Shown one piece after another: positions 5,101 to 40,773 of a stretch of DNA of 64,000 nt (the first letter of the stretch is position 1; each line of letters starts with the position of its first letter). Source of the stretch: Azolla caroliniana (Eukaryota > Plantae > Polypodiophyta); contig JBHGNT010000021.1 of assembly GCA_043228905.1 (NCBI GenBank), positions 3,782,001 to 3,846,000 on the forward strand, in the 5' to 3' direction. The notes below the pieces were generated by a model. That model ran no database searches. It was not told where the DNA came from and saw nothing but the letters and a program-made list of their open reading frames with translations. The position numbers and the translations under genes were made by a program.

Positions 5101-5150
5101 GGACGCCATCTCCAAGTATTAATCTCGACTTGATCCTTCCTACCGCCTCG

Positions 5151-5642: not shown

Positions 5643-5692
5643 CTTCTTGTATATGTAAATATGAATATATTTTTATATTTTTATTTTATCTA

Positions 5693-10651: not shown

Positions 10652-10724
10652 AGGCTGGACCGGTTTTCTCCGTCCCAACTCAATTTGGCGCATGCCGATG
10701 GATGCGCGGTTAGGTGGGGGCGGA

Positions 10725-11352
10725 TGTCGTGAAGAAAACCGTCCACGAGCGGAATCGGTGCGCCGGAGCATAGGAACCGGCTCTTCATGCACGTACGCCT
10801 TGTGTTGTACATAAGAGAGAATTAGGGACATGGAAGATCCTAGGTAGGTAGATTCGGTAGGTAGGAAGTTAATAGATTCGGTAGGTAGGGAGACGAGGAG
10901 GAGGAAGGGGATCGCGAATCAGAGAGGACGAAGTGTTGTCGGGTTGTCGGCCAAAGGCGTCTCTCTCTTCCAAACTCCATAGCTTCTTTCTGTGCAGGTT
11001 TCGGGAGGCTCGCGCTGCTCTGAGGAATGCCCGAGTGCTTCCGACAGCACCTCCAACCTACTCCTTTCTTTCTGTGCGTTTACGAACAGGCATCGGCATC
11101 TGTTCGCCGGCCTGTTCGGTTGTAACCGACTTCGTGTTTTTGTTGTTTGTCTCTGTTGATATATACTTACATACCGTTGTGCCTCTCTGTGTTGTTTTCC
11201 ACGCTCGCGTCTTCGTGTCGAAGGGCCGTGTCCCTGTGGATCTACGCCCGCACGTAGTGGGTTCCTTCCCTTCTCCTTTCCCTATTTGCTCTTCGGTACA
11301 AGACCCCCGAGGTCCCGCCTCATTCCACGCATCCGCGAGGAGTACCTCGACA
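10725..11352 (+). repeat. 3' LTR of element 2 (preceded by PPT TAGGTGGGGGCGGA)
   Basis: Starts TGTCGTGAAG after a purine-rich tract, ends TCGACA; RT coding of element 3 resumes at 11353. Confidence 0.85.
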
Positions 11353-14300: not shown

Positions 14301-14690
14301 CTGTCTGTTCTTTGTTGCTCTTCTCTGCAGGTTTCGGGAGCCTCGCGCTGCTTCGAGGAACGCTCGTGTGCTTCCGGCAGCACCTCCATCCTATCCCCAT
14401 TTCGTGCACATACGAACAGGCATCGACATCTGTTCGCCGGCCTGTTCAGTTGTAGCCGCTCTCGTGTTCTGTTGTGTACTTGTTATTCGTTAATATACAA
14501 ACACTTGTGTTTCCCTGTCTCTGTGTCCATTCGCGTTTTTTGTGTCAACGGGCCACGCCCCTATGTTTCTTTGCTCATACGTGACCGGGCGTCTCTCTCC
14601 TTCTCTTTTCCCCTTCTATCATCTACTCTTCGGTTCAAGACCCCGGTGGTCCCGCCTCGTTTCCTCACACACGCGCGTAGTAATGCGACA
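11353..14690 (+). mobile_element. Ty3/Gypsy element 3 (from mid-RT to 3' LTR), interrupted by element 2
   Basis: RT-RH 11353-12600, INT 12658-14040, PPT, LTR; in-frame deletion of 11 RT residues near 11427 relative to element 2. Confidence 0.92.
14042..14690 (+). repeat. 3' LTR of element 3
   Basis: TGTCGTGAAG start after the PPT, CTATAAA TATA-like motif near 14215, ends GCGACA; similar to LTR2. Confidence 0.85.
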
Positions 14691-16630
14691 ACGTCTGGAA
14701 GCACCCAAAGAAGAGGAACGGCATCCCGCTCCGAGTGGTGGTGAAGAAGGAGGAGCAGGAGGATTTGCTGGCGGCGTACCACGATAGCCCGTGGGCTGGA
14801 CACCGTGGAACATGGGCTGGACACCGTGGAACGTGGGCCACGTTCGAAAAGCTAAAGGGGAAGTACTGGTGGCCGGGACTATACCGAGACGTGCATCGGT
14901 TCGTGACGACTTGTGAAAGGTGTCAGGTGCACTCCATGATCCGACACCGGGACAAGCTTCACCCGACCTACCCTCCGACCGTCCACTTCAAATGGATGGT
15001 GGATTTGGTGACGATGCCAATGGGGGTAGGACAGATGCGGTATCTGGTGCTGGCTCGAGAGGATCTAACAAACCAGGTTGAAGGCCGAGCCCTGCAGAAC
15101 AAGACGACTGCAGTCGTATGCCGGTTTTTGATTGAGGACGTGGTATGCCGATACGGGTGCGTGGGGAAGATCGTGGCTGATCGTGGTGAGTTGGACGCAG
15201 AAGAGGCCGAAGAGTTGTTCGACCGGCTAGGAGTCAAACTTTCGCTCACCACAGCGTACAATCCAGAGGCGAACGGGAAGGTAAAGCGCGGACACGGGCC
15301 GATTGTCAAAGCGCTAGTTCGGGCATGTGGAGGCCAGGTCGAGAACTGGCCACGGCTACTACCTTATGCCTTGTGGGCGGACCGGACTACGCACAGTTCA
15401 GTGACCGGGTTCATGCCGGTCGAGCTTATGTTCGGACAGAAGCCGATCATGCCAATAGAGCGGACGATCTCCTCGTGGGCCACGGTGGACTAGAGGGATG
15501 AGATGAGCCGGGAGGAACTGTTGGCGGCGCGGATTCGACAGCTCGAGCGGAGGCCGGAGGACGTAGAGCGAGCCGGGGAGAAACTTCGGGTAGTGAGGAT
15601 AAGGAACAAAGCCCGGTTCGACCAAACACACCGGCTCAGGCCAAGGAAGATCGAGGAAGGCGACTGGGTGCTAGTCTATGACAGCAGCCTCGACAATCAG
15701 CACAAGGCCACGCGGAAGTTCGCAAGGAGGTGGTTCGGGCCTTACGTAGTAACAGGCGCCAACGACAATGGGACGTACCATCTCGCGGAGCTCGACGGTA
15801 CGAAAATGGCGATACCGGTAGCGGGGAAGAGGATCAAAGCGTTCAAGAAACGACACGACGGTGAGCCGGAGCTAGGGGGCACGGACAGCAACGACGAGCA
15901 ACCCGAGGCGGAGGACGAACCGGTAAACGAGGAATAAAAGCAAGGACCGGTTTTCTCCAAGTAGGAACCCAATTTTGGCGCATACCGGTTGATGCGCGGT
16001 TAGGTGGGGGCGGATGTCATGAAGAAAACCGTCCCCATGCGCAAACCGTGTATAGCGTGTGTGAACTGGCCCTTACACGTGGGCACGCCCCTTGTGGTAC
16101 AGTAGATAGGTAGGCACAAAGGTCAGATCCTAGGTAGCAATATTCTATAGGGAGAATCGAGGAGTATCTCTGTTCGAAAGGACATAGAATTAATGTGATG
16201 TAAACGGGTAAGGCGGCCTCCCTCCTTGAGCTATAAAAGAGAGGGAGACGGGGAGAGAAGGGTATCGCGCGCTAGAGGGAAGGAAGTGTTGTCGGACTGG
16301 GACCGAGCTCTTCCTCCCTGTCGTTCTCCATAGCTTTCTTTTGCGCAGGTTCTTAGGAGGCTGATTCTGCTCCGTGGAACGCCCATGTGCTTCCGGCAGG
16401 ATCTCCATCTTGCTCTCCTGTGTGCGTGGGTGATCAGGCGTCGGCATCCACCTCACCGACCTGATCGGCTGTAACCGTTCGAGTCGTCTGCATACACACA
16501 AATACATGCATATTGTTACATACATACTCTAGTGTTCTCACCTCGTGTCTCCTGTGTTGTTGTGCCGCGCGTTCCCGTGCGCTTCTTTGTCTATACGTGA
16601 GTGAGTGTCTCTCTCTCTCTCTCTCTCTCT
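14691..16630 (+). mobile_element. Ty3/Gypsy element 4 (integrase to truncated 3' LTR), interrupted by element 3
   Basis: Integrase ORFs 14735-15493 and 15503-15937, PPT, then an LTR starting TGTCATGAAG at 16015 that ends in a (CT)n tract with no CGACA terminus. Confidence 0.9.
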
Positions 16631-17115
16631 CTTTTGACATGAATTATCAGTCCATTTTTAAAGTGTAATGAATTCTATCATCTACATCATTTCTTTGTAT
16701 TTTTTAGTTTTGTATGCCAATTGAATTATTATTTTTTGAACAACCCTTTCCATACCCATGGTTCCCCAAGGAGAAGTGATCCAATCTCATAGAGTAGGAA
16801 CATATATGGGCATCTATATAAACTTCACAAGGAAATTATGTGTTTGGACATTTTCAAACTCTTTTGACATGAACTATCAGTCCATTATAAAGTGTAATGA
16901 ATTCTATCATCCACATCATTTCTTTGTATTTTTTAGTTTTGTATGTCAATTGAATTATTATTTTTTGAACAACCCTTTCCATACCCATGATTCCCCAAGG
17001 AGAAGTGATCCAATCTCATAGAGTAGGAACATATATGGGCATCGATATAAACTTTACAAGGAAATTATGTGTTTGGACATTTTCAAACTCTTTCGACGTG
17101 AACTATCAGTCCATA
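16631..17115. repeat. Local ~229-bp tandem duplication next to the retroelement cluster
   Basis: cttttgacatgaa(t/c)tatcagtcc recurs at 16631 and 16861, with a variant near 17090; intervening sequence nearly identical. Confidence 0.9.
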
Positions 17116-18365
17116 ATCCAACCTAACCTTATTGAGCATCTTAGTGTTACGAACATGTCAAATAGTTGTTTCTTAGGAACCAAAAGTTCATTTTTCCTTC
17201 CTAATAGTAAGCCCTCACACCCCCTTCCAAGTAGCAATTTTAATAGAACGCTTAAGTTGTTTCTTGGAGTCTCATTCAAAGGCATACTTTTCGTCTTGGA
17301 GATATTAACACTCCCTTTACCCTCCCTTGATCACTCCCATTCATTTAAACCTCATTCTCTAAAACATCTCTCTTTTTATCTTCTATGGTCTCTTGTTTTT
17401 TTGTTTTTTGTTACATCTATTCCTCCCCTTCTTGTGACACTACGATGTTTCGTATCACTTCTTGTGTTTGAACATATCCATATGGACCTAAAAGCGCTCT
17501 TCTTCCAAAATTTTGTTGCCTTTGCATCACATCAATGGACCATCAGGGTTTTCTTAAATATATACACACATGCATACATATATACATATATATAATTGTT
17601 TCATTTTCCATATTTGGTTTGGGTCTAATTCATAGGCATAAATTTCAGCTTGGAGACGTTAACACTTCATTTACTTGCATACAAAAGTTTTCCACAAGAC
17701 TTAAAAGCTTATGGGTATCTTCTAAAGTATTTGCAAAATGCATCACGTGGGTTGTGTATAACAAAAGCATGATTATTACATTTTAGACTTCCTATTTTAT
17801 AGAATCATCAACTATTTGTTTTGATTCATCAATGCATAAACCAAAGTGAGTCGTTGAGAGTGACCATAGCTTAGCTCAACAAACATCCTACTAGTTCAAA
17901 AATCTTAATTTACTTAAAAACAAAAGGTGTTATACAAAAGACCATGACAAGAAGTAAGACTAACCAAAACTTGGTTCATGATGAAGAGAACAAGGGCATG
18001 TTTGTAATGCTCTAAGGGCTTATTTAATCTATGCTTAGAAGAGAAAGCTTTTTGAAATCACTACTATTAAGACTTCATTGGATAGTATAGAGTGTAATGG
18101 GTTCAATGGTAGCTTCAATACACATATTTGAAGAAATCATTACTTAACCTCCCACTCACTCACGATATAAAGCACCATGGAAACACTACTAGAGTAAGTT
18201 TTCCATTGCTAGCTTGTCCGCCCGATAATTCACTTAGAAAACTATACCACATCATCACTCACTCAGGAGAAAATATGCACCATGGAAATGACATGTCTTT
18301 GCCCCTAAAATTTCACTTAGAAAGAACCACACCACATCAAAGGTGTTGCTAACCTACAAACCAGA

Positions 18366-19925
18366 CTACATCAAGTGAATTGTCCGTGGGATGCCTTTCT
18401 TTTCTTGTTTCCGGTATGACATCTCCCACTGATTGGTACCTGCACCTGTTTTTAGGGTATCCGCGGAAGTCCGAATCTCTTCGATGACGGCTTTGAGCAT
18501 GGCCTCGGGATTACCTCCTCCCCGGTATCTGATGAATGTCTCGGCCATGGTCGCGGGAGTGACCGTGTTCTGGCCACACGCCACCTCCTCCAGCTCAATG
18601 AACAATTCCGGGTGGGTTTCCCGGGACGTGCCATCAAGGTAATTCACCGCTAGTTTCTCCACCACCGCGGGGGTGCAATAGGAGAGGTGGATATGCATAT
18701 CCATGCGGCCCGGTCTCAGCAATGCCGGGTCGAGCCTCTCCTTGAAATTGGTGGTGAAGATGAAGATCCGCTCCTCGGCGCACCCCGACCATAGCCCGTC
18801 GGTGAAATTCAGCAGTCCCGAGAGCGTCAGTTTGGAGGCGGTGGGGTCGGTTGCGGTGATCCCATGGGAGTTGTTAGTGGTGGAAGTTTCCATGGTATTA
18901 TTACCATTGGATTCGGGTCCATTGATGACATTGCTCCTCCGGTCCGCAAATTGGAACGAGCAATCGATGTCTTCTATGACGATGATCGACCTGCGAGTGG
19001 TGCTCATGAGGAGCTTTTTGAGCTCGGCATTGTCCCAGACATTCGTGAGCTCGAGGTCATAGATGTCATAGTGGAGGCGGTTGGCTATGGCCGCAATGAG
19101 GCTGGACTTGCCCGTCCCGGGGGGGCCATGGAGGAGGTACCCACGCTTCCAAGCCCGGCCCAGATGGCGGTACAAGTCCTGGTTCTCGCGGAAGCTGTCG
19201 AGGTCATCGAGGAGCTTAGAGTGGAGGTCCGTGTCGAGGGCTATGCTATCAAAGGTGGAAGGATGGGTGAAGGGGGCAGATTCCCAGTGGCCGTTCCTGA
19301 ATTTGGAGTTCGAACAGATCTTGAGCTGGGTGTTCTTATGTTGGATCTCCATAGCCGTGCGTGTAACGTGCTCCAGATAGCCGGGCACGATGGCCGACCG
19401 GCCCGATGCCGGAAACTCGAGAGTGAAGTACTCATTATCACTGCCCCTACCATTTATCCGGCCTCCCCCACGAGGATTACCTCCTCCTCCATACCTTCCG
19501 GAGCCACCATTGGAATCTTCTTTCATTTTTTTCCACTGGACCACGACACCATGGAAGGTGTCCTCGAGGATCACTCCTAGGGGGAGATGGAAACGGAGCG
19601 GGTCCCCCTCGTGGACCCTCACGACATCTAGGCTCTTGTGGTTGCACAATGCATTGTCGAGGGAGCTGATGTATAGAACCGAGTGGCGGTAGACATGGTT
19701 GATGCACTCGTCCGATCTCTCCGGGATTCGGAGAGTGACAGTGTCGGGAGCCTCGTGATGGAGGAGCCACTGCCAGAGTGCATCCATCTTCCGGCTGAGC
19801 CACTGCTGGAGGGGGGGTGGCAGAAACCTCTCGAGGAGGGCATACATGCCCATCCAGTACATGGCAACCGACATGACATCCATCCTGTTGCCGCCCCCGC
19901 CCTCGCCCCCGACCCCGACCGCCAT
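18366..19925 (-). CDS. BCS1-like plant AAA ATPase (N-terminal AAA-associated domain + AAA domain), copy 1, intronless
   Basis: HPSTFDSIA, AWKRGYLLHGPPGTGKS (Walker A), IIVIEDIDC (Walker B), TLSGLLNFTDGLWS, LDPALLRPGRMDMHI; first ATG at 19925. Confidence 0.93.
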   Translation of the reverse strand: MAVGVGGEGGGGNRMDVMSVAMYWMGMYALLERFLPPPLQQWLSRKMDALWQWLLHHEAPDTVTLRIPERSDECINHVYRHSVLYISSLDNALCNHKSLDVVRVHEGDPLRFHLPLGVILEDTFHGVVVQWKKMKEDSNGGSGRYGGGGNPRGGGRINGRGSDNEYFTLEFPASGRSAIVPGYLEHVTRTAMEIQHKNTQLKICSNSKFRNGHWESAPFTHPSTFDSIALDTDLHSKLLDDLDSFRENQDLYRHLGRAWKRGYLLHGPPGTGKSSLIAAIANRLHYDIYDLELTNVWDNAELKKLLMSTTRRSIIVIEDIDCSFQFADRRSNVINGPESNGNNTMETSTTNNSHGITATDPTASKLTLSGLLNFTDGLWSGCAEERIFIFTTNFKERLDPALLRPGRMDMHIHLSYCTPAVVEKLAVNYLDGTSRETHPELFIELEEVACGQNTVTPATMAETFIRYRGGGNPEAMLKAVIEEIRTSADTLKTGAGTNQWEMSYRKQEKKGIPRTIHLM

Positions 19926-20124
19926 TGGAACTCTTTTTAACCTAAAAAAGATTTGTCCCAATTTGCTCTAAAGCAAATTCATCAGATGATGAATGCAAAC
20001 TTGCAATTGCCAATTCATGAGATGGATGAGGCAATGAATATATGCACACACCCGGCCAACATATATATAGTTCCTTAAGAAGCTCTCTCAAAAGCAAAAA
20101 GCTACTTACTTGCAAGGCCCGGCG

Positions 20125-20167
<43 letters not shown>

Positions 20168-20175
20168 GCTGCCTA

Positions 20176-20370
20176 GATGGATGTAGCTCGGTTGGTAAGG
20201 TTGCCCAATGGAGACCGGGTGGTCATGGGTTCAACACCCCTACATTCCAGGGGTGGCATCTAGAGAATTATATAAGAGTATATGAAGTATATAATAGAGA
20301 GGTGAGGAAATTGGGTTTCGAACCCATGATGTAGTGCTTGTAGTGTTAACAACTTACCACTAGGGTAAGG
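20176..20370. other. Inverted pair of degenerate tRNA-like heads (SINE/MITE-like segment) upstream of AAA copy 1
   Basis: Plus strand: TAGCTCGGTTGG (20184) and GGTTCAACACC (20228). Minus strand: TAGTGGTAAG and GGTTCGAAACCC (20313-20362). Absent at the matching position of copy 2. Confidence 0.55.
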
Positions 20371-23300
20371 TAATTACGAGAAAAAGGAAAAGAGAGAGAC
20401 TTGGTCTCTCTCGAGTTTCGCTTTTGCTATTCACAATCATTGTCCATATTTCATTCGAAATTTTTATTTTATTCCCTTATATAACATGCTCCAAAGTTGT
20501 CTATTGTCGAACCCATGTGAGAAAAGAAAGGCCCAACAACTTTTTGACGAAATGGGCACTCAAGATTCTAACTTTTGACCATATAAATTCTCTCCAATGT
20601 CCATCAAGATGGTATACACAACATTTTGACGTCAATTCTCTTCAAATTCCCATGTTAGGAGGGTTAAGGGTGCCGTTCCGAGAAGATCCATGTAAAGAAA
20701 TCCTTTGGTTTCACAAATTGGACAACCTAGGCTTTGTCTACCAATAGTTCACAAATACAAGATCCTTTGGTTTCACAAATTGGACAACCTAGGCCTTGTC
20801 TACTCAGAAGCTTGAATGTTACCCTTACCATCAATGGGTTCAACCAAGGCGTTTACAACGACCTAAGAAAGAGTCACCAACTGGTGTTTGGGAAATCTTT
20901 CCCGTTTATCCATAGTTAACAATTTCAAGATCCTTTGGTTTCACAAATTGGACAACCTAGGCTCTATCTATCCATAGTTCACAAATACAATACGTAAACA
21001 TGGACAACCAACATTTCCAAAGCAACCCATAAGAGACAAAAGCAAAATTCTATACTAGAGATCTAGAGTTTGCTTCATTTGATTCTCTTTACTTTTTTAT
21101 AGCTCAAAACAAAAGATTTTAACAAGAAGAAAAAACACAATGCTTCCTTTATTCTCTTTACTTCTTTACAACTCAAATAAAAGATTTTAACAAGAAAAGC
21201 ACGTTTGACATCGGAAGGTTCCGAAGAGGAGAGAAAGTGCCAATGATTTGAAACATCTATACCCATATAAAGTTGCTCCACAACTATCACCACACCTTGG
21301 TGGTATACCTCAGCTATTAACCTTTGAAAGCACCAAGGATTTGAAACATCTACAGTAATAAAGTTGCTCCAGAAGTACATTAGATTCATCCTTGATACAT
21401 GGGTTCCATAGGATACATTGACTGAGCCAGGTAGGTTCGGATCTCAGTTGATCACACTTGAGCCCTCAACGAATGTAACACCATGCCTTCCACATGGATG
21501 CACTGAATCTATCCTCCAATTGGCGGGAGAAACTAGGTTTGAGATCCATGTTTAGAATCCATCCCGTTTGGGGGACCCAATTGACCCCTTTTCGTGGCCT
21601 AAAGTAAGCGAAATGTAACCTCAATAGTATTTTCCAACTGTCATTTCTTGGTTGGAGTCCGATATCACGTTGTTGTGAGAAAGGAATAACAATCATGAGA
21701 GATGGGTATTAGGTATATAGATCTTATTTCATCCTCAAAGGTCAAATACAACCGTAAGAACTAAAGTGAAACATTTTCACATGGAATATGTGGGGTTGAG
21801 TAGAAATAATTGATGTCCAAGAATTTACTAATGGACATTGTAATTGAGAGTGCACATCGTAACCATAGAATGAACCATACGTATCATACGTGCATTCACA
21901 TTCGCGTTTGATTCAATAAAACGTGAATGGTAAATCAACTAAAAGTTGGATTGGTTTGACACGTTTGATTGGATTAACTGTGGTCTATATTATGGGCTAA
22001 ATTTGCAATGAAAACAAATGAAAAAAAGAGAGAGAAAAAAAAAAGGAGCACGTATTTTTCCCCTTTCAAACGTGTACGTTTTCAAACGTTTGAATGCCTC
22101 CACGAACACGAATATTACGTTCTATGATCGTAACTGTGAGAGAAATGTTTATCATATTTATTATTGACAATGTGTGGAAAACAAAGTCAAATTCTGATAT
22201 TCAAGCTCAAGAACTTGTTCAAGGCAAAATATGTATAATCAATTAGTCTCTCCTTTTTTGTCCCCATGCCTCATCTCACATCAAAGAGAATGTGAACAAA
22301 TTCGTATGGAAATGAAGGTGTGGGTGCAATCAAAGAGATGGGGTTTAGCATATATTAGTGAGTGATTTGCCCATTCATAGAAGCTAGTTGGTAATTCCAT
22401 GCTACACATGTAATATAATGTGTGAGACGTGAACCTCCACGTCTTTCCCAAATTATGATTCAGTAGCCCTGTAAACAAATTCAATCATGGAGGAATCTAC
22501 TGATGCATTATAAAGTGTAATGAATTCTATCATCCACATCATTTCTTTGTATTTTTTAGTTTTGTATGTCAATTGAATTATTATTTTTTGAACAACCCTT
22601 TCCATACCCATGATTCCCCAAGGAGAAGTGATCCAATCTCATAGAGTAGGAACATATATGGGCATCTATATAAACTTTACAAGGAAATTATGTGTTTGGA
22701 CATTTTTAAACTCTTTCAACATGAACTATCACTCCATAATCCAACCTAACCTTATTGAGCATCTTAGTGTTACGAACATGTCAAATAGTTGTTTCTTAGG
22801 AACCAAAAGTTCATTTTTCCTTCCTAATAGTAAGCCCTCACACCCCCTTCCAAGTAGCAATGTTAATAGGACGCTTAAGTTGTTTCTTGGAGTCTCATTC
22901 AGAGGCATACTTTTCGTCTTGGAGATATTAACACTCCCTTTACCCTCCCTTGATCACTCCCATTCATTTAAACCTCATTCTCTAAAACATCTCTCTTTTT
23001 ATCTTCTATGGTCTCTTGTTTTTTTGTTTTTTGTTACATCTATTCCTCCCCTTCTTGTGACACTACGATGTTTCGTATCACTTCTTGTGTTTGAACATAT
23101 CCATATGGACCTAAAAGCGCTCTTCTACCAAAATTTTGTTGCCTTTGCATCACATCAATGGACCATCAGGGTTTTCTTAAATATATACACACATACATAC
23201 ATATATACATATATATAATTGTTTCATTTTCCATATTTGGTTTGAGTCTAATTCATAGGCATAAATTTCAGCTTGGAGACGTTAACACTTCATTTACTTG

Positions 23301-23988
23301 CATACAAAAGTTTTCCACAAGACTTAAAAGCTTATGGGTATCTTCTAAAGTATTTGCAAAATGCATCACGTGGGTTGTGTATAACAAAAGCATGATTATT
23401 ACATTTTAGACTTCCTATTTTATAGAATCATCAACTATTTGTTTTGATTCATCAATGCATAAACCAAAGTGAGTCGTTGAGAGTGACCATATCTTAGCTC
23501 AACAAACATCCTACTAGTTCAAAAATCTTAATTTACTTAAAAACAAAAGGTGTTATACAAAAGACCATGACAAGAAGTAAGACTAACCAAAACTTGGTTC
23601 ATGATGAAGAGAACAAGGGCATGTTTGTAATGCTCTAAGGGCTTGTTTAATCTATGCTTAGAAGAGAAAACTTTTTGAAATCACTACTATTAAGACTTCA
23701 TTGGATAGTATAGAGTGTAATGGGTTCAATGGTAGCTTCAATACACATATTTGAAGAAATCATTACTTAACCTCCCACTCACTCACGATATAAAGCACCA
23801 TGGAAACACTACTAGAGTAAGTTTTCCATTGCTAGCTTGTCCGCCCGATAATTCACTTAGAAAACTATACCACATCATCACTCACTCAGGAGAAAATATG
23901 CACCATGGAAATGACATGTCTTTGCCCCTAAAATTTCACTCAGAAAGAACCACACCACATCAAAGGTGTTGCTAACCTACAAACCAGA

Positions 23989-25599
23989 CTACATCAAGTG
24001 AATTGTCCGTGGGATGCCTTTCTTTTCTTGTTTCCGGTATGACATCTCCCACTGATTGGTACCTGCACCTGTTTTTAGGGTATCCGCGGAAGTCCGAATC
24101 TCTTCGATGACGGCTTTGAGCATGGCCTCGGGATTACCTCCTCCCCGGTATCTGATGAATGTCTCGGCCATGGTCGCGGGAGTGACCGTGTTCTGGCCAC
24201 ACGCCACCTCCTCCAGCTCAATGAACAATTCCGGGTGGGTTTCCCGGGACGTGCCATCAAGGTAATTCACCGCTAGTTTCTCCACCACCGCGGGGGTGCA
24301 ATAGGAGAGGTGGATATGCATATCCATGCGGCCCGGTCTCAGCAATGCCGGGTCGAGCCTCTCCTTGAAATTGGTGGTGAAGATGAAGATCCGCTCCTCG
24401 GCGCACCCCGACCATAGCCCGTCGGTGAAATTCAGCAGCCCCGAGAGCGTCAGTTTGGAGGCGGTGGGGTCGGTTGCGGTGGTAACATGGGAGTTTTTAA
24501 TGGTGGAATCTTCCATGGTATTATTACCATTGGATTCGGGTCCATTGATGACATTGCTCCTCCGGTCCGCAAATTGGAACGAGCAATCGATGTCTTCTAT
24601 GACAATGATCGACTTGCGAGTGGTGCTCATGAGGAGCTTTTTGAGCTCGGCATTGTCCCTGACATTCGTGAGCTCGAGGTCATAGATGTCATAGTGGAGG
24701 CGGTTGGCTATGGCCGCAATGAGGCTGGACTTGCCCGTCCCGGGGGGGCCATGGAGGAGGTACCCACGCTTCCAAGCCCGGCCCAGATGGCGGTACAAGT
24801 CCTGGTTCTCGCGGAAGCTGTCGAGGTCATCGAGGAGCTTAGAGTGGAGGTCCGTGTCGAGGGCTATGCTATCAAAGGTGGAAGGATGGGTGAAGGGGAC
24901 AGAATCCCATTGGTCGTTCCCGAATCGGTGTAATCCGGCGTTCGAATAGATCTTGAGCTGCGTGTTCTTATGTTGGATCTCCATAGCCGTGCGTGTAACG
25001 TGCTCCAGATAGCCGGGCACGATGGCCGACCGGCCCGATGCCGGAAACTCGATAGCGAAGTACTCATTATAACTGCCCCCACCATTTGTCAGGCCTCCTC
25101 CATAGCCACCGCCTCCCCCCCATGGATTACCTCCTCCTCCATACCTTCCGGAGCCATCATTGGAATCTTCTTTCATTTTTTTCCACTGGACCACGACACC
25201 ATGGAAGGTGTCCTGGAGGATCACTGCGAGGGGGAGATGGAAACGGAGCGGGTCCCCCTCGCGGGCCCTCACGACATCTAGGTTCTTGTGGTTGCACAAT
25301 GCATTGTCGAGGGAGCTGATGTATAGCACCGAGTGGCGGTAGACATGGTTGATGCACCCATCCAATGTCTCCGGGATTCGGAGAGTGACAGTGTCGGGAG
25401 CCTCGTGATGGAAGAGCCACTGCCAGAGTGCATCCATCTTCCGGCTGAGCCACTGCTGGAGGGGGGGCGGCAGAAACCTCTCGAGGAGGGCATACATGCC
25501 CATCCAGTACATGGCAACCGACATGAAATCCATCCCGTTGCCGCCTCCGCCCCTGCCCCCACCCCCGCCCCCGCCCGCGCCCGCGCCCCCGCCCGCCAT
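23989..25599 (-). CDS. BCS1-like plant AAA ATPase, copy 2, intronless
   Basis: Same motifs as copy 1; longer Gly-rich tracts; first ATG at 25599. Confidence 0.93.
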   Translation of the reverse strand: MAGGGAGAGGGGGGGRGGGGNGMDFMSVAMYWMGMYALLERFLPPPLQQWLSRKMDALWQWLFHHEAPDTVTLRIPETLDGCINHVYRHSVLYISSLDNALCNHKNLDVVRAREGDPLRFHLPLAVILQDTFHGVVVQWKKMKEDSNDGSGRYGGGGNPWGGGGGYGGGLTNGGGSYNEYFAIEFPASGRSAIVPGYLEHVTRTAMEIQHKNTQLKIYSNAGLHRFGNDQWDSVPFTHPSTFDSIALDTDLHSKLLDDLDSFRENQDLYRHLGRAWKRGYLLHGPPGTGKSSLIAAIANRLHYDIYDLELTNVRDNAELKKLLMSTTRKSIIVIEDIDCSFQFADRRSNVINGPESNGNNTMEDSTIKNSHVTTATDPTASKLTLSGLLNFTDGLWSGCAEERIFIFTTNFKERLDPALLRPGRMDMHIHLSYCTPAVVEKLAVNYLDGTSRETHPELFIELEEVACGQNTVTPATMAETFIRYRGGGNPEAMLKAVIEEIRTSADTLKTGAGTNQWEMSYRKQEKKGIPRTIHLM

Positions 25600-26187
25600 T
25601 GGAACTCTTTTTAACCTAAAAAAGATTTGTCCCAATTTGCTCTAAAGCAAATTCATCAGATGATGAATGCAAACTTGCAATTGCCAATTCAACTTGCAGA
25701 TGATGAATGAGGCAATGAGTATATGCACACACCCGGCCAACATATATATAGTTCCTTAAGCTCTCTCAAAAGCAAAAAGCTCCTTACTTGCAAGGCCCGG
25801 CGAAAAAGGAAAGAAAAACACTACTCGTGTTCACACACGAGAGAGAGAGCACGACGCGCGAGAGAGAGAGACACACACTTGCTTTCTCTCTCCACTCTCG
25901 AGGTTCGTTTTTTCTATTCACAACCATTGTCCATATTTCATTCGAAATTTTTATTTTATTCCCTTATATAACATGCTCCAAAGTTGTCTATTGTCGAACC
26001 CATGTGAGAAAAGAAAGGCCCGACAACGTTTTGACAAAATGGGCACTCAAGATTCTAACTTTTGACCATATAAATTCTCTCCAATGTCCATCAAGATGGT
26101 ATACACAACATTTTGACGTCAATTCTCTTCCAATCCCCCATGTTAGGAGGGTTAAGGGTGCCGTTCCGAGAAGATCCATGTAAAGAA

Positions 26188-26420
26188 ATCCTTTGGTTTC
26201 ACAAATTGGACAACCTAGGCTCTGTCTACCCATTGTTCACAAATACAAGATCCTTTGGTTTCACAAATTGGACAACCTAGGCTCTTGTCTATGCATAGTT
26301 CACAAATACAAGATCCTTTGGTTTCACAAATTGGACAACCCTGTCTATCCATAGTTCACAAATACAAGACAAATTGGACAACCTAGGCTCTATCTAACCA
26401 TAGTTCACAAATACAAGACA
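26188..26420. repeat. ~62-bp tandem repeat, ~4 copies
   Basis: atcctttggtttcacaaattggacaacc recurs at 26188, 26250, 26313 and partially near 26370; paralogous units at 20700, 20762 and 20930. Confidence 0.85.
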
Positions 26421-26665
26421 GTAAACATGGAAAACCAACATTTCCAAAGCAGCCCATAAGAGAAAAGCAAAATTCTATACTAGAGATCTAAAGTTTGCGT
26501 CCTTTGATTCTCTTTACTTTTTTATAGCTCAAAACAAAAGATTTTAACAAGAAGAAAAACCACAATGCTTCCTTTATTCTCTTTACTTCTTTACAACTCA
26601 AATCAAAGATTTTAACAAGAAAAGCACGATTGACATTGGAAGGTTCCGAAGAGGAGAGAAAGTGC

Positions 26666-27122
26666 CAATGATTTGAAACATCTATACTCATATAAAATTG
26701 CTTCGCCACTATCACCACACCTTGGTGGTATACCTCAGCTATTAACCTTTGAAAGCAGCAATGATTTGAAACATCTATACTCATATAAAATTGCTTCGCC
26801 ACTATCACCACACCTTGGTGGTATACCTCAGCTATTAACCTTTGAAAGCAGCAATGATTTGAAACATCTATACTCATATAAAGTTGCTCCGCCACTATCA
26901 CCACACCTTGGTGGTATACCTCAGCTATTAACCTTTGAAAGCACCAATGATCTGAAACATCTATACTCATATAAAGTTGCTCCGCCACTATCACCACACC
27001 TTGGTGGTATACCTCAGCTATTAACCTTTGAAAGCACCAATGATTTGAAACATCTATAGTAATAAAGTTGCTCCACGGACTATCACCACACCTTGGTGGT
27101 ATACCCAAGCTTTTAACCTTTA
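26666..27122. repeat. 93-bp minisatellite, ~5 copies
   Basis: caatgat(t/c)tgaaacatctata recurs at 26666, 26759, 26852, 26945, 27038. Confidence 0.95.
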
Positions 27123-27424
27123 AATGTTAGCTCCCGAAAGGACTGAAATATTTACACTTAGGTTTGACAACTACAACTATACCTAGGTAGATAAACAAGC
27201 TATTCACGTTTAAATGATATTACACCCCTCAACACCAATTCGGTAAGAGTAGTTATGATTCATGAACAATGCTCAAGTACATGCACACAAGTTTACTACT
27301 AGCCCTTTTCACATTGTCGTGGTTTTCTAAGCGCGCTATATACAAACATGTAACAAAAACCACGAAATGGCTCCCTCTTGCCAAAGTACGCAAAAAGGGC
27401 ACAATAATGAAGACAATCCCATGA

Positions 27425-28867
27425 TTAGACTCCCGTCGGCCATGCCTCTGGAACTTCGTGAATATCGTACTGATCCGATAGAGGTAGGAGAGCTTGGGAC
27501 GAGTCGAAGAAGACAAAGGCATCATAGCGACGAGCGAGGCAAGTCGGAACATAGTTTCCCCATCGCTCCGTCAAAGGCTCATAAACCACTCCGATGGCTC
27601 GGTTACCCCGCCACTCTAACAGGACACTTGGAGATGTATTCTTACTATCCATGGCATCCACAACCACATTGTCATCATTATTGGTGTCCTTGGACCTTTT
27701 GCCCTTGGGAGGCCCAAAGAGGAGATAGAACTGTTGGAGATGCCCTGCAGCCTTATGCAAGATGTCCTCGAACGAGTCCGGCTTGGCCTCGGGCACACGT
27801 AGCTTCTGCACGGGACCCGTCCACTTGTTAGACGCGACTACCGAACCCTTGTAGGTCCCAAACCCCACTAATGCAACCTCTTCTTCACCGTACCGGAGCC
27901 GGGCCAAGCCCCCAATATTCACGCTCCCTTGCTTCTCCATGCTTGTGTAGCGATAATCCCCGATGTGCGTGTTATGGGCCCACACGATGGCGCGCCCTTT
28001 GTCCGGCGTGTGTCGGACCAACAGCTCCAAAGTCTCCATCATGTGCCGGTCCCTCACATTCCATGACTCCGAGCTGCTCCCGAACATGACCGTGCGGTAG
28101 TACTTCTCGGCATCCACAGCAACCTTTGCGTTTTGCTTTATGTCTCTCACGACCTCTTCCTCGTCCTCGGACTTGATCCTAAACCGCTTCTTCCTTACCT
28201 CTTGCAAGACCCGGATCACCTCGGCTTTACACCCCTCGGGGCACTCGGCCAAAAGGTTCATGTATTCTTGTTCGTCCCGATTGGACTGGTGGAAGCACGC
28301 ATATTGCGCCTTCGCCTTCTCCGCGAGGTCCGGGTCAAGCTTCTCAAGCTCCGATATGACCACATCCATGGACTCGAAGAGCGAGTAAAGGTCAAGGCCG
28401 TAGAATCGCACCTTCCGTCCGCTTTCTTCATTGTAGGACTTGAGCCAATTGATGAATGATTCGGTCTCTTTGTTTGCCCACATCCAAGTGGGCCATCTTC
28501 GGAAAGCCTTCTTCAAAACCTCCCCGGCAGGAGGTGATGTTTCACACTTGTCTAGCTTCTCCGTCTTCTTGCTGGCCGCGGTGGCGGCGGACGAAGAGAA
28601 GGCGCCCAAGAGTTTCTTATTGACCGTCTGAGATGCCGGCCAATCGCCTTCGATCGCAACGAACTCGAATCCGTGCTCCGAGATGAGGCGTTGGGATATG
28701 AGACTCCGCCACTCGTAGAAATCATGGGTGCCATGGCTCGCCTCGCCCAGCATGACCACCCGAGCTTTGCTAATGAACTCTACGAGCCCCGAGAGGCTAT
28801 TATTCTGGTCATGGAGTGGGACCGCCCGCTTCGCCACTTCCTTCAGGAGCCCTTCACCCACTGGCAT
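27425..28867 (-). CDS. Erythromycin esterase (Ere/ChaN-like superfamily) protein, intronless, ~480 aa
   Basis: Family motifs VMLGEASHGTHDFYEWR, FVAIEGDWP, RWPTWMWAN, FYGLDLYSL, SWNVRDRHM, IVWAHNTHIGD, RAIGVVY, YDAFVFFD and C-terminal PEAWPTGV. Confidence 0.92.
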   Translation of the reverse strand: MPVGEGLLKEVAKRAVPLHDQNNSLSGLVEFISKARVVMLGEASHGTHDFYEWRSLISQRLISEHGFEFVAIEGDWPASQTVNKKLLGAFSSSAATAASKKTEKLDKCETSPPAGEVLKKAFRRWPTWMWANKETESFINWLKSYNEESGRKVRFYGLDLYSLFESMDVVISELEKLDPDLAEKAKAQYACFHQSNRDEQEYMNLLAECPEGCKAEVIRVLQEVRKKRFRIKSEDEEEVVRDIKQNAKVAVDAEKYYRTVMFGSSSESWNVRDRHMMETLELLVRHTPDKGRAIVWAHNTHIGDYRYTSMEKQGSVNIGGLARLRYGEEEVALVGFGTYKGSVVASNKWTGPVQKLRVPEAKPDSFEDILHKAAGHLQQFYLLFGPPKGKRSKDTNNDDNVVVDAMDSKNTSPSVLLEWRGNRAIGVVYEPLTERWGNYVPTCLARRYDAFVFFDSSQALLPLSDQYDIHEVPEAWPTGV

Positions 28868-29154
28868 GATCAATCAATGTATGTAGTTATAGGAGTCCTT
28901 TTTTTTAAAATTAAATGATGATGAGCAATTAACTATGGCTAAAACCTGGCCGTTAACTAATTATGATGGTTATTATGTATGTAGTAGAAATCCCTCTTTT
29001 TGTTTTACCTATGATTAATTTAACTATGGCTAAACCTGGCTGTTAACTAATTATGATGGCTAAAAGGAAATGTATTAACAAAAATGTGTTTCCTAATAGA
29101 TTTCCTTTTATTTATTCGTATGCTGATGTGGCACTTACCATATTTAGCAAACCA

Positions 29155-30014: not shown

Positions 30015-30542
30015 CACTATTAACAATCAGCAACGGAACTGCGATACCACGACTGAACAACTTAACGGTTCAATTTGGTTTGGTTCAGTTCTAGTTTTTT
30101 TAACGGTTCGGGTTTGGTTCGGTTTGAATGGTTTGAATCCATGGTTTAGGGTTGCTAGTTCATTATTATTTTTAATATTTTTTTAAACAACCTTTTCAAT
30201 AGGAGGGAGGAACAAAGGAGAGCCCACACACGGGCGCTTAGGAATTCGCTATACCCACCAAATTTTGGTTTTTTAAGTCTATTTCTCACATTTTAGAAAA
30301 AAATCTTTAAAATTTTGAATTATTTAAAATTTAAAATAATGAAAATTTAAAAAGTTTGAATTTTGACCTAATTTGATAACTGAAATTGAACCATGAAACC
30401 ATAACTTTAATAGTTTGAACTTTTCCTAACGGTTCGGTTTAAACAGTTTTGGTTTTAATGGTTGTCGTTCAAGTTTCAAATTTTTAAATGGTCTGGTTAT
30501 GACACTCTCGAACCAAACCGTTGCCAATTGTTAATCACTATG
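30015..30542. mobile_element. Non-autonomous TIR element (MITE-like)
   Basis: Imperfect TIRs attaacaatcagcaacgg (30019-30036) and ccgttgccaattgttaat (30518-30535), 16/18 match; subterminal GGTTC/GGTTT motifs; no coding capacity. Confidence 0.6.
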
Positions 30543-35815: not shown

Positions 35816-37263
35816 CTAAGTCTTTGACGTATCTATCCGGCTCTTGTGAAGTTGGAAGGCAGGAACAACCCAAGTTCCACAGCTGCATTGTGCACCAGCC
35901 CAGTCAAAACTACCAAGCCTCGCACTACATACAATACAAGAAAGCTTTCCCATAACATCACCTTCTTGGACTGCAAAAATAAGCTCGAGTATTACAACAA
36001 GGCTAAAGAAAACTAAAACTTCAATTACCACATTCAAAGAATGCCATATCCTACCTGGAATCATCCATTTCATGGGCTGAACAAAAATAGAAGTGCAGTC
36101 CAGCGGTGTCTTCTCATTCCAAAGGCTGTCTTTTCCTCTTCTTTTGAAAGACTTCCCACTCTCTTGGTTATGGATTTGCACATTCTCTTGACATGCTACT
36201 ATTTGCCTACATTTTTTACATCGGTAAACCTCTTGATCTCTAGAATCTTGTGGCATTGAAGAAAATTTTGACACAGGGTCAGCTGGAAGTGACAGCTTTC
36301 CAAACTCTTGCACGTAACCAGACTCTTCACCTACATGAGAAGCAATTTAATTGCCTCACTAATTCACTACAATTTACTGTCTCCATTCATGCATGCATGT
36401 ATGCATACTCTATATACATGCATACGCATAATATATATATAATATCCAATAATCACATAGCACATACATATAAAACCATATGCCAAACCCCTGCAAAGGT
36501 TGCAAGATTTGGGATCTCAATCTCAAGATGATAGGCTGTGGGGAAACATTGCATTCTTTAAGTTCTTTACCCCCTCCATTCTACAATATATTTTTCTTTT
36601 CTCTATCAAATAAACATTTTGGCAGTTGTTTTGCCTTGATCTTCTTTGCCATTTTCAAATATTCATTTTCTAGAAGCAACTTTTTTACAGCATCTTATTG
36701 TTCATGCTTTTGCTTCTTTTACATCAAGCAAGAACATTAGTTCCTAAAGTGTTTTCTGGTTTATATAAAAAAATAGGTTTATTTAAGAAACCTCCTAGTA
36801 TGTATGTGTACTGATAAAGCATTCACTATGGTTGCTTCAAAACCACAACAAAAACTGTCTTCCGCATATATAAAGAGAATCATGGCAAGCTTAGCACACA
36901 ATATGAAGGGAGAAGTGTTTTATGACAAAGGAGGGAAGTCAATTTCTTTTCAAATGTTTAATGAATTGTCTGTTTTAAATGAACTTAAAAGGTTAAAATA
37001 AATGCATGTGTGTGCATGTGCAAATGTATAGGTATACATGTATATCGACATGCAGTTGTGCGTGTATGTGTATGTGCAAAAAGCAGATCATAAAGCGATC
37101 GAATCAGATATATAATTGAAATAACCCTGTTTCCTACATTCCGTGATGTGAATCCAAAATTCCATGCATTTAAAGAAAGGGCAGAAGACAGAGATGGAGA
37201 TGGAGATCTGAAGCAGAGAATAAAAGACAGAGAGTTGCTACCTGCAGGTTGGATGGCAGCCAT
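35816..37263 (-). CDS. DUSP12/YVH1 C-terminal zinc-binding-domain-only protein (At4g18593-like); exons 37263-37242, 36330-36055, 35970-35816; 150 aa
   Basis: YRCKKCRQ, CTSIFVQPMKWM, KLSCIVCSARLGSFDWAGAQCSCGTWVVPAFQLHKSRID; GT-AG sites give a continuous frame MAAIQPA-G-EESG. Confidence 0.8.
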
Positions 37264-38215
37264 GGACAATACTTCCTACCCGACCTCACCAATTCTTCAA
37301 ACCTGTATCATGACACATAAAAACTGTGCCTGTGTCTGTGTGTATACAGTCTTAACATGTGTATGCATGCATGCATGCATGTATGTATGTATGTATGTAC
37401 ACGTGTACAGAATGTATTATCAAGGGAGAGGTTTTTTTCTTCTAGTTTATTGAGTTGTGGGAGGATTTGAACTTGTAGTGATAAAGGGGTTTTCTAATGC
37501 TTAAGCTGTTTTGTGAGCATGAGGCTCACATGACAAATAGTTGTCATGAAGACCATATAGAGTATTTTGGAATAGTTGTGTTGTACGGTGGACAATGGGC
37601 AATGGGCAATAGGCATTGGAGTTGATTAGGCGAACTTCTACTTCCATTGACGTGTGTTTTTAATGCTTAGCTTGTTGTAATGACACCCATTAAGAGAGTC
37701 TCTCAATGTGGTTATTGTGTATAATGATCATTGGCATTGATTAGGCTAAATTGTGGAGACTAGGGATTTTATGAATGTGTTTCATTGTGAATAGTTGAAT
37801 CGACAAACATTTGGAGAGGCTTTCGGAGTGGTTGTATTATAAATTGGTCATTACATTGATTCCACAAAAGCGATTCTAGTGTAAAAATTTCATTAAAATG
37901 TGTTGCTTGATAATTCTTTACTGAAAATTAACAAGCCATTTATATTTGGTAATGTTGAAGTTTTTGCTCTAATGCAACAAAAAATTAGGCAAAAGTGTAT
38001 TAATGGAAGTATAGGCTGATGGAAGAAGAAATTAATCTCTACCACACAAACTAAAGAAATCCTCAACTTGCTTGAGGATTGTGACATTAAAGGTATCTAC
38101 AAATTCTCTATGTAAATGTAACTTAAATCTCCTTGATATTGGCAACTTGTGTAATTGTGTTATTTTCTAATCTTTTCTATGTTGATGCTTCAAGTTCAGC
38201 TCACCGTTAACAATG

Positions 38216-40773
38216 TCCTTGTATTCCTCATCATTCTGATGATGACACTTAACAATGTTGCAATAAAATTCATCTTTCAACATAGATTCCTAGTACTTAA
38301 TAACTTTAAATTGAATTTGAGTCATTATAGGTGCTCAAAACTCATTTCTCATAGGAGATCTATAGTGATCAATATTTAAAGTTAAATTTGAGTGAGCCAT
38401 TGTGATTTCCCTCTTTTGGCAATAGCACAACTCGTGCACATACCATGTCCTTGTATTCCTCATCCTTCTGATGATGAGACTTAACAATGTTGCAATAAAA
38501 TTCATCTTTCAACATAGATTCCTAGTACATAATAACTTTAAATTGAATTTGAGTCATTATAAGTGCTCAAAACTCATTTCTCATAGGAGATCTATAGTGA
38601 TCAAATATTTAAAGTTAAATTTGAGTGAGCCATTGTGATTTCCCTGTTTTGGCAATAACACAACTCGTGCACATACCATGTCCTTGTATTCCTCATCCTT
38701 CTGACGATGAGACTTAACAATGTTGCAATAAAATTCATCTTTCAACATAAATTCCTAGTACTTAATAACTTTAAATTGAATTTGAGTCATTATAGGTGCT
38801 CAAAACTCATTTCTCATAGGAGATCTATAGTGATCAATTATTTAAAGTTGAATTTGAGTGAGCCATTGTGATTTCCCTCTTTTGGCAATAACACAACTCG
38901 TGCACATACCATGTCCTTGTATTCCTCATCCTTCTGATGATGAGACTTAACAATGTTGCAATAAAATTCATCTTTCAACATAGATTCCTAGTACATAATA
39001 ACTTTAAATTGAATTTGAGTCATTATAGGTGCTCAAAACTCATTTCTCATAGGAGATCTATAGTGATCAATTATTTAAAGTTGAATTTGAGTAAGCCATT
39101 GTGATTTCCCTGTTTTCGCAATAACACAACTCGTGCACATACCATGTCCTTGTATTCCTCATCCTTCTGATGATGAGACTTAAGAATGGTGCAATAAAAT
39201 TCATCTTTCAACATAGATTCCTAGTACATAATAACTTTAAATTGAATTTGAGTCATTATAGGTGCTCAAAACTCATTTCTCATAGGATATCTATAGTGAT
39301 CAAATATTTAAAGTTGAATTTGAGTGAGCCATTGTGATTTCCCTCTTCTGGCAATAACACAACTCGTGCACATACCATGTCCTTGTATTCCTCATCCTTC
39401 TGATGATGAGACTTAACAATGTTGCCATAAAATTCATCTTTCAACATAGATTCCTAGTACATAATAACTTTAAATTGAATTTGAGTCATTATAGGTGCTC
39501 AAAACTCATTTCTCATAGGAGATCTATAGTGATCAATTATTTAAAGTTGAATTTGAGTGAGCCATTGTGATTTCCCTCTTTTGGTAATAGCACAACTCGT
39601 GCACATACCATGTCCTTGTATTCCTCATCCTTCTGATGATGAGACTTAACAATGTTGCAATAAAATTCATCTTTCAACATAGATCCCTAGTACATAATAA
39701 CTTTAAATTGAATTTGAGTCCTTATAGGTGCTCAAAACTCATTTCTCATAGGAGATCTATAGTGATCAATTATTTAAAGTTGAATTTGAGTGAGCCATTG
39801 TGATTTCCCTCTTTTGGCAATAGCACAACTCGTGCACATACTATGTCCTTGTATTCCTCATCCTTCTGATGATGAGACTTAACAATGTTGCAATAAAATT
39901 CATCTTTCAACATAGATTCCTAGTACATAATAACTTTAAATTGAATTTGAGTCATTATAGGTGCTCAAAACTCATTTCTCATAGGAGATCTATAGTGATC
40001 AAATATTTAAAGTTAAATTTGAGTGAGCCATTGTGATTTCCCTCTTTTGGCAATAGCACAACTCGTGCACATACCATGTCCTTGTATTCCTCATCCTTCT
40101 GACGATGAGACTTAACAATGTTGCAATAAAATTCATCTTTCAACATAGATCCCTAGTACATAATAACTTTAAATTGAATTTGAGTCATTATAGGTGCTCA
40201 AAACTCATTTCTCATAGGAGATCTATAGTGATCAATTATTTAAAGTTGAATTTGAGTGAGCCATTGTGATTTCCCTCTTTTGGCAATAGCACAACTCATG
40301 CACATACCATGTCCTTGTATTCCTCATCCTTCTGATGATGAGACTTAACAATGTTGCAATAAAATTCATCTTTCAACATAGATCCCTAGTACATAATAAC
40401 TTTAAATTGAATTTGAGTCCTTATAGGTGCTCAAAACTCATTTCTCATAGGAGATCTATAGTGATCAATTATTTAAAGTTGAATTTGAGTGAGCCATTGT
40501 GATTTCCCTGTTTTCGCAATAACACAACTCGTGCACATACCATGTCCTTGTATTCCTCATCCTTCTGATGATGAGACTTAACAATGTTGCAATAAAATTC
40601 ATCTTTCAACATAGATTCCCAGTACTTAATAACTTTAAAATCAATTTGAGTCATTATAGGTGCTCAAAACTCATTTCTCATAGGAGATCTATCGTGATCA
40701 ATGATTTAATGTTGAATTTGAGTGAGCCATTGTGATTTCCCTCTTCTAGCAATAACACAACTCATGCACATAT
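38216..40773. repeat. Tandem array, 11 x 233 bp
   Basis: Unit start tccttgtattcctcat at 38216, 38448, 38681, 38914, 39147, 39380, 39613, 39846, 40079, 40312, 40545; units nearly identical. Confidence 0.97.

What the first reader, a model, noticed from the sequence alone, without database searches (positions are those of the whole stretch)
27425..28867. Intact bacterial-type erythromycin esterase gene embedded in a plant chromosome: horizontal transfer candidate
Seen: an uninterrupted, intronless ~480-aa ORF, GC-richer than its flanks, between clearly plant genes (AAA ATPases, TIM23). It keeps the Ere catalytic-type residues (GEASHG, downstream Arg, AIE, AHNxH) and has two low-complexity insertions suggesting long residence in a eukaryote. 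Known: the family is mainly bacterial (EreA/EreB hydrolyse macrolides) with fungal members, and ferns have documented bacterial transfers. To my knowledge it is not a standard flowering-plant family. Inference: an acquired esterase detoxifying microbial lactones or acting in specialised metabolism; macrolide activity is not implied by family membership.
Basis: partly seen in the sequence, partly recalled or inferred. Interest (0 to 1): 0.85.

Follow-up and report, generated by a model that had tools for sequence, protein, structure and literature searches.

The report
Bacterial-type esterase kept by seedless plants
This is a real, intact fern gene of the erythromycin-esterase superfamily with relatives in other ferns, Selaginella and peat moss, likely taken up from bacteria early in land-plant history and likely lost in seed plants, and its predicted ester-cleaving activity and natural substrate are untested.

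Summary
The ORF is real: 480 aa, intronless, minus strand, PF05139 (E 2e-108), with all five EreC catalytic residues and a confident Ere-fold model. It is no contaminant. Independent DNA runs join it to AT-rich flanks at about single-copy depth, and RNA-like runs cover coding sequence only. It is not a one-off recent fern transfer: relatives occur in Adiantum, Ceratopteris, Selaginella and Sphagnum, and the vascular copies follow plant phylogeny. A published Pfam census finds the domain in 6/300 tracheophytes and 17/115 bryophytes. The plant copies group (SH-aLRT 98-99) with a Bdellovibrionota-dominated subfamily and are rejected as kin of a separate protist-like subfamily (p-AU 0.0008). One origin for moss and vascular copies is not rejected (p 0.46), nesting inside Bdellovibrionota is not shown (p 0.48), and the nearest sisters are unnamed eukaryote-like sequences. 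Best reading: an ancient bacteria-derived, likely cytosolic His/Glu water-activating esterase, kept patchily in seed-free plants. It fails the EreA/B/D cut-offs, so macrolide resistance is not implied. GC content and the two insertions say nothing about origin. My searches found no paper describing it as a transfer, but two large HGT lists could not be read.

The parts
27425..28867 (-). Intronless ORF, 480-aa erythromycin-esterase-superfamily (PF05139) protein
   Evidence: AlphaFold2 model pLDDT 90, pTM 0.90; Foldseek best hits BcR136/BcR135 (E 3e-23 to 4e-21) and EreC (E 7e-18)
28733..28744 (-). Glu42 and His45 (EreC E47 and H50): predicted catalytic base and the residue that orients it
   Evidence: alignment to 6XCQ with a 20-residue numbering offset; roles from PMC7979712 passages; His45 in 138 of 138 rows
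28649..28651 (-). Glu73 (EreC E78): predicted water-binding residue
   Evidence: 138 of 138 rows
28052..28054 (-). Arg272 (EreC R261): predicted to stabilise the tetrahedral intermediate
   Evidence: 137 of 138 rows
27965..27967 (-). His301 (EreC H289): predicted water-binding residue
   Evidence: 138 of 138 rows
28523..28585 (-). Lineage-specific loop insertion 1 (residues 95-115), low model confidence
27635..27700 (-). Lineage-specific loop insertion 2 (residues 390-411), low model confidence

Best explanation
This is an intact nuclear fern gene of the erythromycin-esterase superfamily, likely acquired once from a Bdellovibrionota-type bacterial lineage by (or shortly before) the ancestor of land plants, and predicted to encode a cytosolic ester or lactone hydrolase whose natural substrate is untested. 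Shown: the gene, its plant context, its fold family, retention of the five catalytic residues, relatives in ferns, Selaginella and Sphagnum, and grouping with a Bdellovibrionota-dominated subfamily. Inferred history: direction from bacteria to plants, a single event, vertical descent afterwards with codon usage adapting to the host, and repeated loss in seed plants and most mosses and liverworts. Inferred mechanism, by homology to EreC: Glu42 orients His45; His45, Glu73 and His301 hold a water; His45 deprotonates it; hydroxide attacks the ester carbonyl; Arg272 stabilises the tetrahedral intermediate; no acyl-enzyme forms. The likeliest substrate is a small non-macrolide ester, endogenous or microbial, as for BcR135/BcR136.
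For: Not a contaminant. Runs X1 and X2 (same organism label, two studies) each have one contig over 27015-29147 with 5-6 differences, at depth 44 and 13. Neighbouring pieces are at 46-52 and 17-18, and the duplicated AAA region is at about double (99.5 and 27). A run with another organism label has one 3,552-nt contig over 26015-30026. Likely transcribed: RNA-like runs X6 and X7 cover this ORF, the AAA gene and TIM23 and leave most intergenic bins at zero; X18 covers the ORF at about 90% identity ('RNA' is the tool's guess). Plant relatives: Adiantum nelumboides 58%, Ceratopteris 59%, Selaginella 47%; the Sphagnum cluster at 44% includes S. magellanicum and S. jensenii records on 17-18 Mb contigs, and a 97%-identical copy is intronless in gene-poor DNA. 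Vascular copies form one clade (SH-aLRT 96-97): Selaginella, then an unnamed protein, then (window,(Adiantum,Ceratopteris)). The six best of 80 named prokaryote loci are Bdellovibrionota. In the 62-row clade holding the plants (SH-aLRT 99), 12 of 13 rows from named genome loci are Bdellovibrionota. Plants joined to four protist-like proteins of another subfamily are rejected, p-AU 0.0008. Moss plus vascular monophyly is not rejected, p 0.46; with four unnamed sisters added, the constrained tree is 8.4 lnL better than the free one. Census: 17/115 bryophytes and 6/300 tracheophytes (PMC13069868 supplement).
Against: The free trees place moss and vascular copies apart. Nesting inside Bdellovibrionota is not established: the plants could be sister to all 49 other rows of that clade (p-AU 0.48). 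The nearest sisters of the vascular clade (P0053, P0184, L084, L129, P0338) are unnamed and look eukaryotic: L129 has 1.2 kb without a gene upstream, a GA microsatellite and an AT-rich tail. An algal or other eukaryotic intermediate is therefore open. PMC13069868 lists the domain in algae and treats it as ancestral, not as a transfer. No hornwort, liverwort or algal sequence was identified by name in my searches. No contig bridges this gene to the coding sequence of a neighbour. AU groups were named after seeing trees, under LG+G4; the bootstrap tree did not finish. No activity or location was measured; cytosolic rests on a crude hydropathy scan.
Confidence: 0.55

Rival explanations
1. Two or more independent transfers from related Bdellovibrionota-type bacteria: one into mosses (Sphagnum line) and one into the vascular-plant ancestor.
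For: All free trees separate the two plant groups, each with its own unnamed sister (SH-aLRT 95 each).
Against: Monophyly costs only 2.4 lnL (p 0.46), and a tree uniting both groups with their sisters scores 8.4 lnL higher than the free tree. The backbone is weakly supported.
Confidence: 0.17
2. The bacterial gene entered a microbial eukaryote first, either an algal ancestor well before land plants or an unrelated protist or fungus that passed it on.
For: The sister clade of the vascular copies consists of unnamed sequences on transcript-length or gene-poor contigs. The census lists the domain in algae.
Against: None of these sisters is identified; some could be bacteria or unsampled bryophytes.
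Confidence: 0.2
3. Vertical inheritance of an old eukaryotic gene, with massive loss; the bacterial likeness reflects poor eukaryote sampling.
For: PMC13069868 Table S4 lists the domain only under losses, so it is reconstructed as ancestral, and the paper's HGT table gave no hit. Protist-like PF05139 proteins exist (identity inferred).
Against: That reconstruction is presence/absence parsimony on a Pfam domain, not a gene tree. The plant copies are 42-49% identical to bacterial proteins over the full length and are rejected as kin of the protist-like subfamily (p 0.0008). Both plant genes whose DNA I could read are intronless.
Confidence: 0.06
4. Function rival: the protein is a true macrolide esterase that protects plant organellar ribosomes from soil macrolides.
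For: All five EreC catalytic residues are kept and the fold is the same.
Against: NCBIfam EreA/EreB/EreD scores are 31, 24 and 21 bits against cut-offs of 750-800. It is 16-19% identical to EreC and closer in structure to BcR135/136; BcR136 shares the catalytic residues yet lacks macrolide activity (PMC6109786 passage). Twelve of the 120 best hits are fused to a phosphoribosyltransferase-type domain, PF00156, which suggests ordinary metabolism.
Confidence: 0.06
5. Bacterial contamination or a chimeric assembly.
For: Intronless and GC-rich; no single read-derived piece links it to a neighbouring coding sequence.
Against: Same flanks and roughly single-copy depth in runs of two studies, collinear flanks under another organism label, best hits in other plants, codon usage like the neighbouring AAA genes.
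Confidence: 0.01

Closest known systems
BcR135 / BcR136 of Bacillus cereus (PDB 2RAD, 3B55, 2QGM; 'succinoglycan biosynthesis protein')
   Same: Same two-lobed fold (Foldseek E 3e-23 to 4e-21, TM 0.67-0.69 by query) and catalytic residues; general esterases on p-nitrophenyl butyrate (PMC6109786 passage).
   Different: 18-20% identity. The plant protein belongs to a different, Bdellovibrionota-dominated subfamily and has two extra loops.
EreA/EreB/EreC/EreD macrolide esterases
   Same: Fold (6XCQ E 7e-18) and E47/H50/E78/R261/H289 equivalents.
   Different: 16-19% identity, far below NCBIfam cut-offs; chromosomal plant gene; macrolide activity untested.
Uncharacterised 'erythromycin esterase family' proteins of Bdellovibrio, Bacteriovorax and Oligoflexia
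   Same: 43-46% identity over nearly the full length for the six best loci; same clade, SH-aLRT 98-99.
   Different: Bacterial; some unnamed or Bdellovibrionota relatives carry an N-terminal PF00156 domain, absent in the plant copies.
Known microbial gene transfers into seed-free plants (1,809 HGT families in PMC12513842; repeated metallophore-synthesis gene acquisitions, PMC12454661, title and abstract start only)
   Same: Bacterial-type gene with few introns, patchy in seed-free plants.
   Different: This family is not named in the main text of PMC12513842 or PMC3493653, nor in the supplements I could search; the full HGT lists were not readable.

Membership tests
Erythromycin esterase superfamily (PF05139) | Full-length match above the gathering score | tested here: met
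   364 bits against 26.4; profile 1-357 of 358
Erythromycin esterase superfamily (PF05139) | Ere/BcR two-lobe fold | tested here: met
   Model pLDDT 90; top six Foldseek hits are BcR135/136 and EreC
Erythromycin esterase superfamily (PF05139) | Catalytic Glu, His, Glu, Arg, His | tested here: met
   E42, H45, E73, R272, H301
Erythromycin esterase superfamily (PF05139) | Esterase activity | not testable with these tools
   Needs an assay
EreA/EreB/EreD resistance enzymes | NCBIfam curated cut-off | tested here: not met
   31/24/21 bits against 750/750/800
EreA/EreB/EreD resistance enzymes | Macrolactone hydrolysis | not testable with these tools
   Needs LC-MS with purified protein
Bacteria-to-plant horizontal transfer | Integrated in the plant genome, not contamination | tested here: met
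Bacteria-to-plant horizontal transfer | Groups with a bacterial clade rather than with other eukaryotic homologues | tested here: met
   SH-aLRT 98-99; p-AU 0.0008 against a protist-like subfamily whose identity is inferred
Bacteria-to-plant horizontal transfer | Nested inside the donor clade with an identified bacterial sister | tested here: inconclusive
   p-AU 0.48 for plants outside; nearest sisters unnamed and eukaryote-like
Bacteria-to-plant horizontal transfer | Absent from algal outgroups | tested here: inconclusive
   No named algal hit, but most rows are unnamed and a census lists the domain in algae
Fern-specific recent transfer | Restricted to ferns | tested here: not met
   Selaginella and Sphagnum relatives

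The most novel reading that the evidence does not exclude
An undescribed gene family taken from predatory Bdellovibrionota-type bacteria by the land-plant ancestor, kept for over 400 million years in hornworts, peat mosses, lycophytes and ferns and dropped by seed plants. It would encode a cytosolic hydrolase that opens microbial lactones (macrolides or signalling lactones), giving seed-free plants a chemical defence that seed plants gave up.
Probability: 0.12. Interest if true: 0.75.

Novelty: new member of a known kind. Interest (0 to 1): 0.45.

Why it matters
It adds a likely unlisted family to the bacterial genes acquired early in land-plant history. The apparent donor group (predatory Bdellovibrionota) is unusual, and the gene is retained in seed-free plants. 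Orthologues in tractable species (Ceratopteris, Selaginella, Sphagnum) make the function directly testable, and a plant phenotype could reveal the natural substrate of the large non-resistance branch of the Ere superfamily. It also shows that a published presence/absence reconstruction, which scores this domain as ancestral, may have missed a transfer. Ancient transfers into seed-free plants are common (1,809 families in PMC12513842), which limits the surprise.

Tried and rejected
No whole genome is held for this window, so genome-wide copy number was not tested; tblastn finds one copy in the window. No RNA holder is listed on record; expression rests on runs guessed to be RNA. GC and codon usage as transfer evidence: rejected, since native AAA neighbours match. 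Insertions as an age marker: rejected as lineage-specific. The first fold, from a 7-row alignment, was poor (pLDDT 56) and was replaced by a 138-row one. The bootstrap IQ-TREE run did not finish in three calls, so only SH-aLRT values are quoted; the test 'vascular plus protist-like' did not finish and was not repeated. The search for shorter proteins gave Sphagnum-like and P0003-like fragments but no newly named plant. The 50%-representative search and the ESM Atlas carry no usable organism names beyond 'mostly bacteria'. Earlier scan findings: none by sequence or words. Literature: 'erythromycin esterase' with Selaginella gave 0 papers; with 'land plants' 1 unrelated; with HGT and 'fern' 138, of which the 20 listed concern bacteria; PF05139 gave 2 unrelated; none of the 20 listed held the term. 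Supplements of PMC9477723 (9 files, one scanned PDF unread), PMC6786969 (9 files) and PMC12513842 (1 small file only) had no hit. Main texts of PMC3493653 and PMC12513842 had none. Ma et al. 2022 (Mol Plant) is not held.

Full report
Observation. The window holds an uninterrupted ORF at 27425-28867 on the minus strand, 480 aa. It matches Pfam PF05139 over the whole profile (E 2e-108). With a 138-row alignment AlphaFold2 gives pLDDT 90 and pTM 0.90, and the six best Foldseek hits are BcR136, BcR135 and EreC. Aligned to EreC (20-residue offset), E42, H45, E73, R272 and H301 correspond to E47, H50, E78, R261 and H289, the residues in the mechanism of PMC7979712 (passages). They occur in 133, 138, 138, 137 and 138 of 138 aligned rows. 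Two insertions (95-115, 390-411) are low-confidence loops filled in under a quarter of rows. The neighbours are two AAA ATPases in a 5.6-kb tandem duplication that ends at 26795, a Tim17/22/23-family gene, PPR genes and retrotransposon ORFs.

Is it really in the plant? Yes. Runs X1 and X2 (same organism label, different studies; X1 could be the window's own source) each have one contig over 27015-29147 with 5-6 differences. Depth is 44 and 13, against 46-52 and 17-18 for adjacent pieces and about double over the duplicated AAA region. Run X9, with another organism label, has a single 3,552-nt contig from 26015 to 30026, with 91 differences and 21 gap letters over 27129-28973. In X3 the region is covered in short pieces. 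No piece joins the gene to a neighbouring coding sequence; pieces break at microsatellites. Of four further runs, X6 and X7 cover this ORF, the AAA gene and TIM23 and leave most intergenic bins at zero, X18 covers the ORF at about 90% identity, and X16 behaves as DNA. That is a hint of transcription, since the tool only guesses these runs to be RNA. GC (0.549) and GC3 (0.68) equal those of the native AAA genes (0.57, 0.72), with codon-usage correlation 0.69-0.72, against -0.49 to 0.51 for seven Bdellovibrionota genes. Composition therefore shows adaptation to the host, not foreign origin.

Distribution. Among the 120 best hits, the named plants are Adiantum nelumboides (58%), Ceratopteris (59%) and Selaginella (47%). 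A 35-member cluster at 44% includes Sphagnum magellanicum and S. jensenii records on 17-18 Mb contigs. A copy 97% identical to it is intronless in gene-poor DNA of a 109-kb contig. PMC13069868 (section 9, passages, part 1 of Table S4 and single rows of three other supplement files) reports the domain in 6/300 tracheophytes and 17/115 bryophytes, and lists it as a core-domain loss at nodes N2 and N4. From column order and the stated gain counts I infer these nodes to be euphyllophytes and mosses plus liverworts. That would make the domain core in their 2 lycophytes and in at least 6 of 7 hornworts; this is my inference, as I could not see the figure. The paper also counts the domain in algae, reconstructs it as ancestral, and gave no hit in its HGT table.

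Origin. The six best of 80 loci kept from named prokaryote genomes are Bdellovibrionota, 13 of 80 overall; the scan read 11 of 64 parts of the collection. A 380-row FastTree put all plant rows in a 182-row clade whose 13 named-genome rows are 12 Bdellovibrionota and one unclassified proteobacterium. An 81-row IQ-TREE subsample (LG+C20+F+G4, SH-aLRT only; 62 rows drawn from that clade, long-branch and short rows left out of the sampled part) supports the clade at 99. It recovers vascular plants (96) as Selaginella,(P0003,(window,(Adiantum,Ceratopteris))), and Sphagnum plus P0154 (99) separately. The window is thus a fern outside the Adiantum-Ceratopteris pair; I did not place it further. AU tests under LG+G4, with groups named after seeing trees, gave four results. 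Moss plus vascular monophyly is not rejected (p 0.46). Plants plus four protist-like proteins of another subfamily are rejected (p 0.0008; their protist identity is inferred from transcript-length unnamed contigs). Plants plus four unnamed sisters score 8.4 lnL better than the free tree. Plants outside the other 49 rows are not rejected (p 0.48). So kinship with the Bdellovibrionota-type subfamily is well supported, while nesting, the number of events and the immediate donor are open. The sisters of the vascular clade look eukaryotic: L129 has no upstream gene in 1.2 kb, a GA repeat, a possible short GT-AG intron and an AT-rich tail, and L084 is transcript-sized. An intermediate or older eukaryotic host is therefore a serious rival.

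How it likely works. By homology to EreC, His45, oriented by Glu42, deprotonates a water held with Glu73 and His301; hydroxide attacks an ester carbonyl, and Arg272 stabilises the intermediate. There is no hydrophobic N-terminal signal in seven plant-type proteins (crude scan), so it is likely cytosolic. It is not an Ere resistance enzyme by membership: 21-31 bits against cut-offs of 750-800, and 16-19% identity to EreC. BcR136 keeps the same residues, cleaves p-nitrophenyl butyrate and lacks macrolide activity (PMC6109786 passages). Twelve of the 120 best hits carry a PF00156 domain, which hints at ordinary metabolism in the bacterial relatives. I commit to a small-molecule ester or lactone hydrolase, substrate unidentified, with overall confidence 0.55 for the single-transfer reading and about 0.9 for an ultimately bacterial origin.

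Novelty. Ten full-text searches and supplement searches of four papers found no description of this family as a plant transfer. The HGT lists of Ma et al. 2022 (not held) and of PMC12513842 (data files not held) could contain it. The orthologues are already annotated as erythromycin esterase in UniRef. Verdict: a real, probably ancient bacterial acquisition shared by seed-free plants, a new member of a known kind; interest 0.45.

Noticed in passing
window 16883-21368 and 22506-26795: Recent tandem duplication (94-96% identity, 5.6-kb period) carrying the two AAA ATPase genes and their flanks; it stops about 630 bp short of the esterase gene.
   Followed up: partly
window 26658-27121: Five copies of a 93-bp repeat just downstream of the gene; runs X3 and X9 skip 394 bp there, so copy number varies. 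A 63-bp x3 repeat lies at 26188-26369.
   Followed up: partly
window 30070-30535: A short AT-rich element reaching summed depth in the thousands in three of four DNA runs near 30169-30519 and 1,345 in the fourth: a high-copy repeat, perhaps MITE-like.
   Followed up: no
window 38210-40772: Tandem array with a period of about 233 bp, roughly 11 copies at 95-97% identity.
   Followed up: no
window 42538-55877: Cluster of three intronless PPR genes; the one scanned has E and DYW domains.
   Followed up: no
window 1-16100: Nested, fragmented LTR-retrotransposon pol ORFs on both strands, with internal duplications.
   Followed up: no
window 35816-36256 (-): 146-aa Cys-rich ORF with no Pfam hit; from memory it resembles the zinc-binding tail of Yvh1/DUSP12 phosphatases and is probably part of a spliced gene.
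   Followed up: no
L082:834-2199: A Sphagnum-like second copy with stops and frameshifts, apparently a pseudogene.
   Followed up: partly
P0004 (Selaginella EFJ14202.1): This Selaginella copy has Cys in place of the conserved Arg272 equivalent; P0127 and P0128 keep Arg.
   Followed up: no
L129:1189-2517: An unnamed, eukaryote-looking metagenome gene of the same Bdellovibrionota-type subfamily, sister to the vascular-plant copies; it may mark further transfers into microbial eukaryotes.
   Followed up: partly
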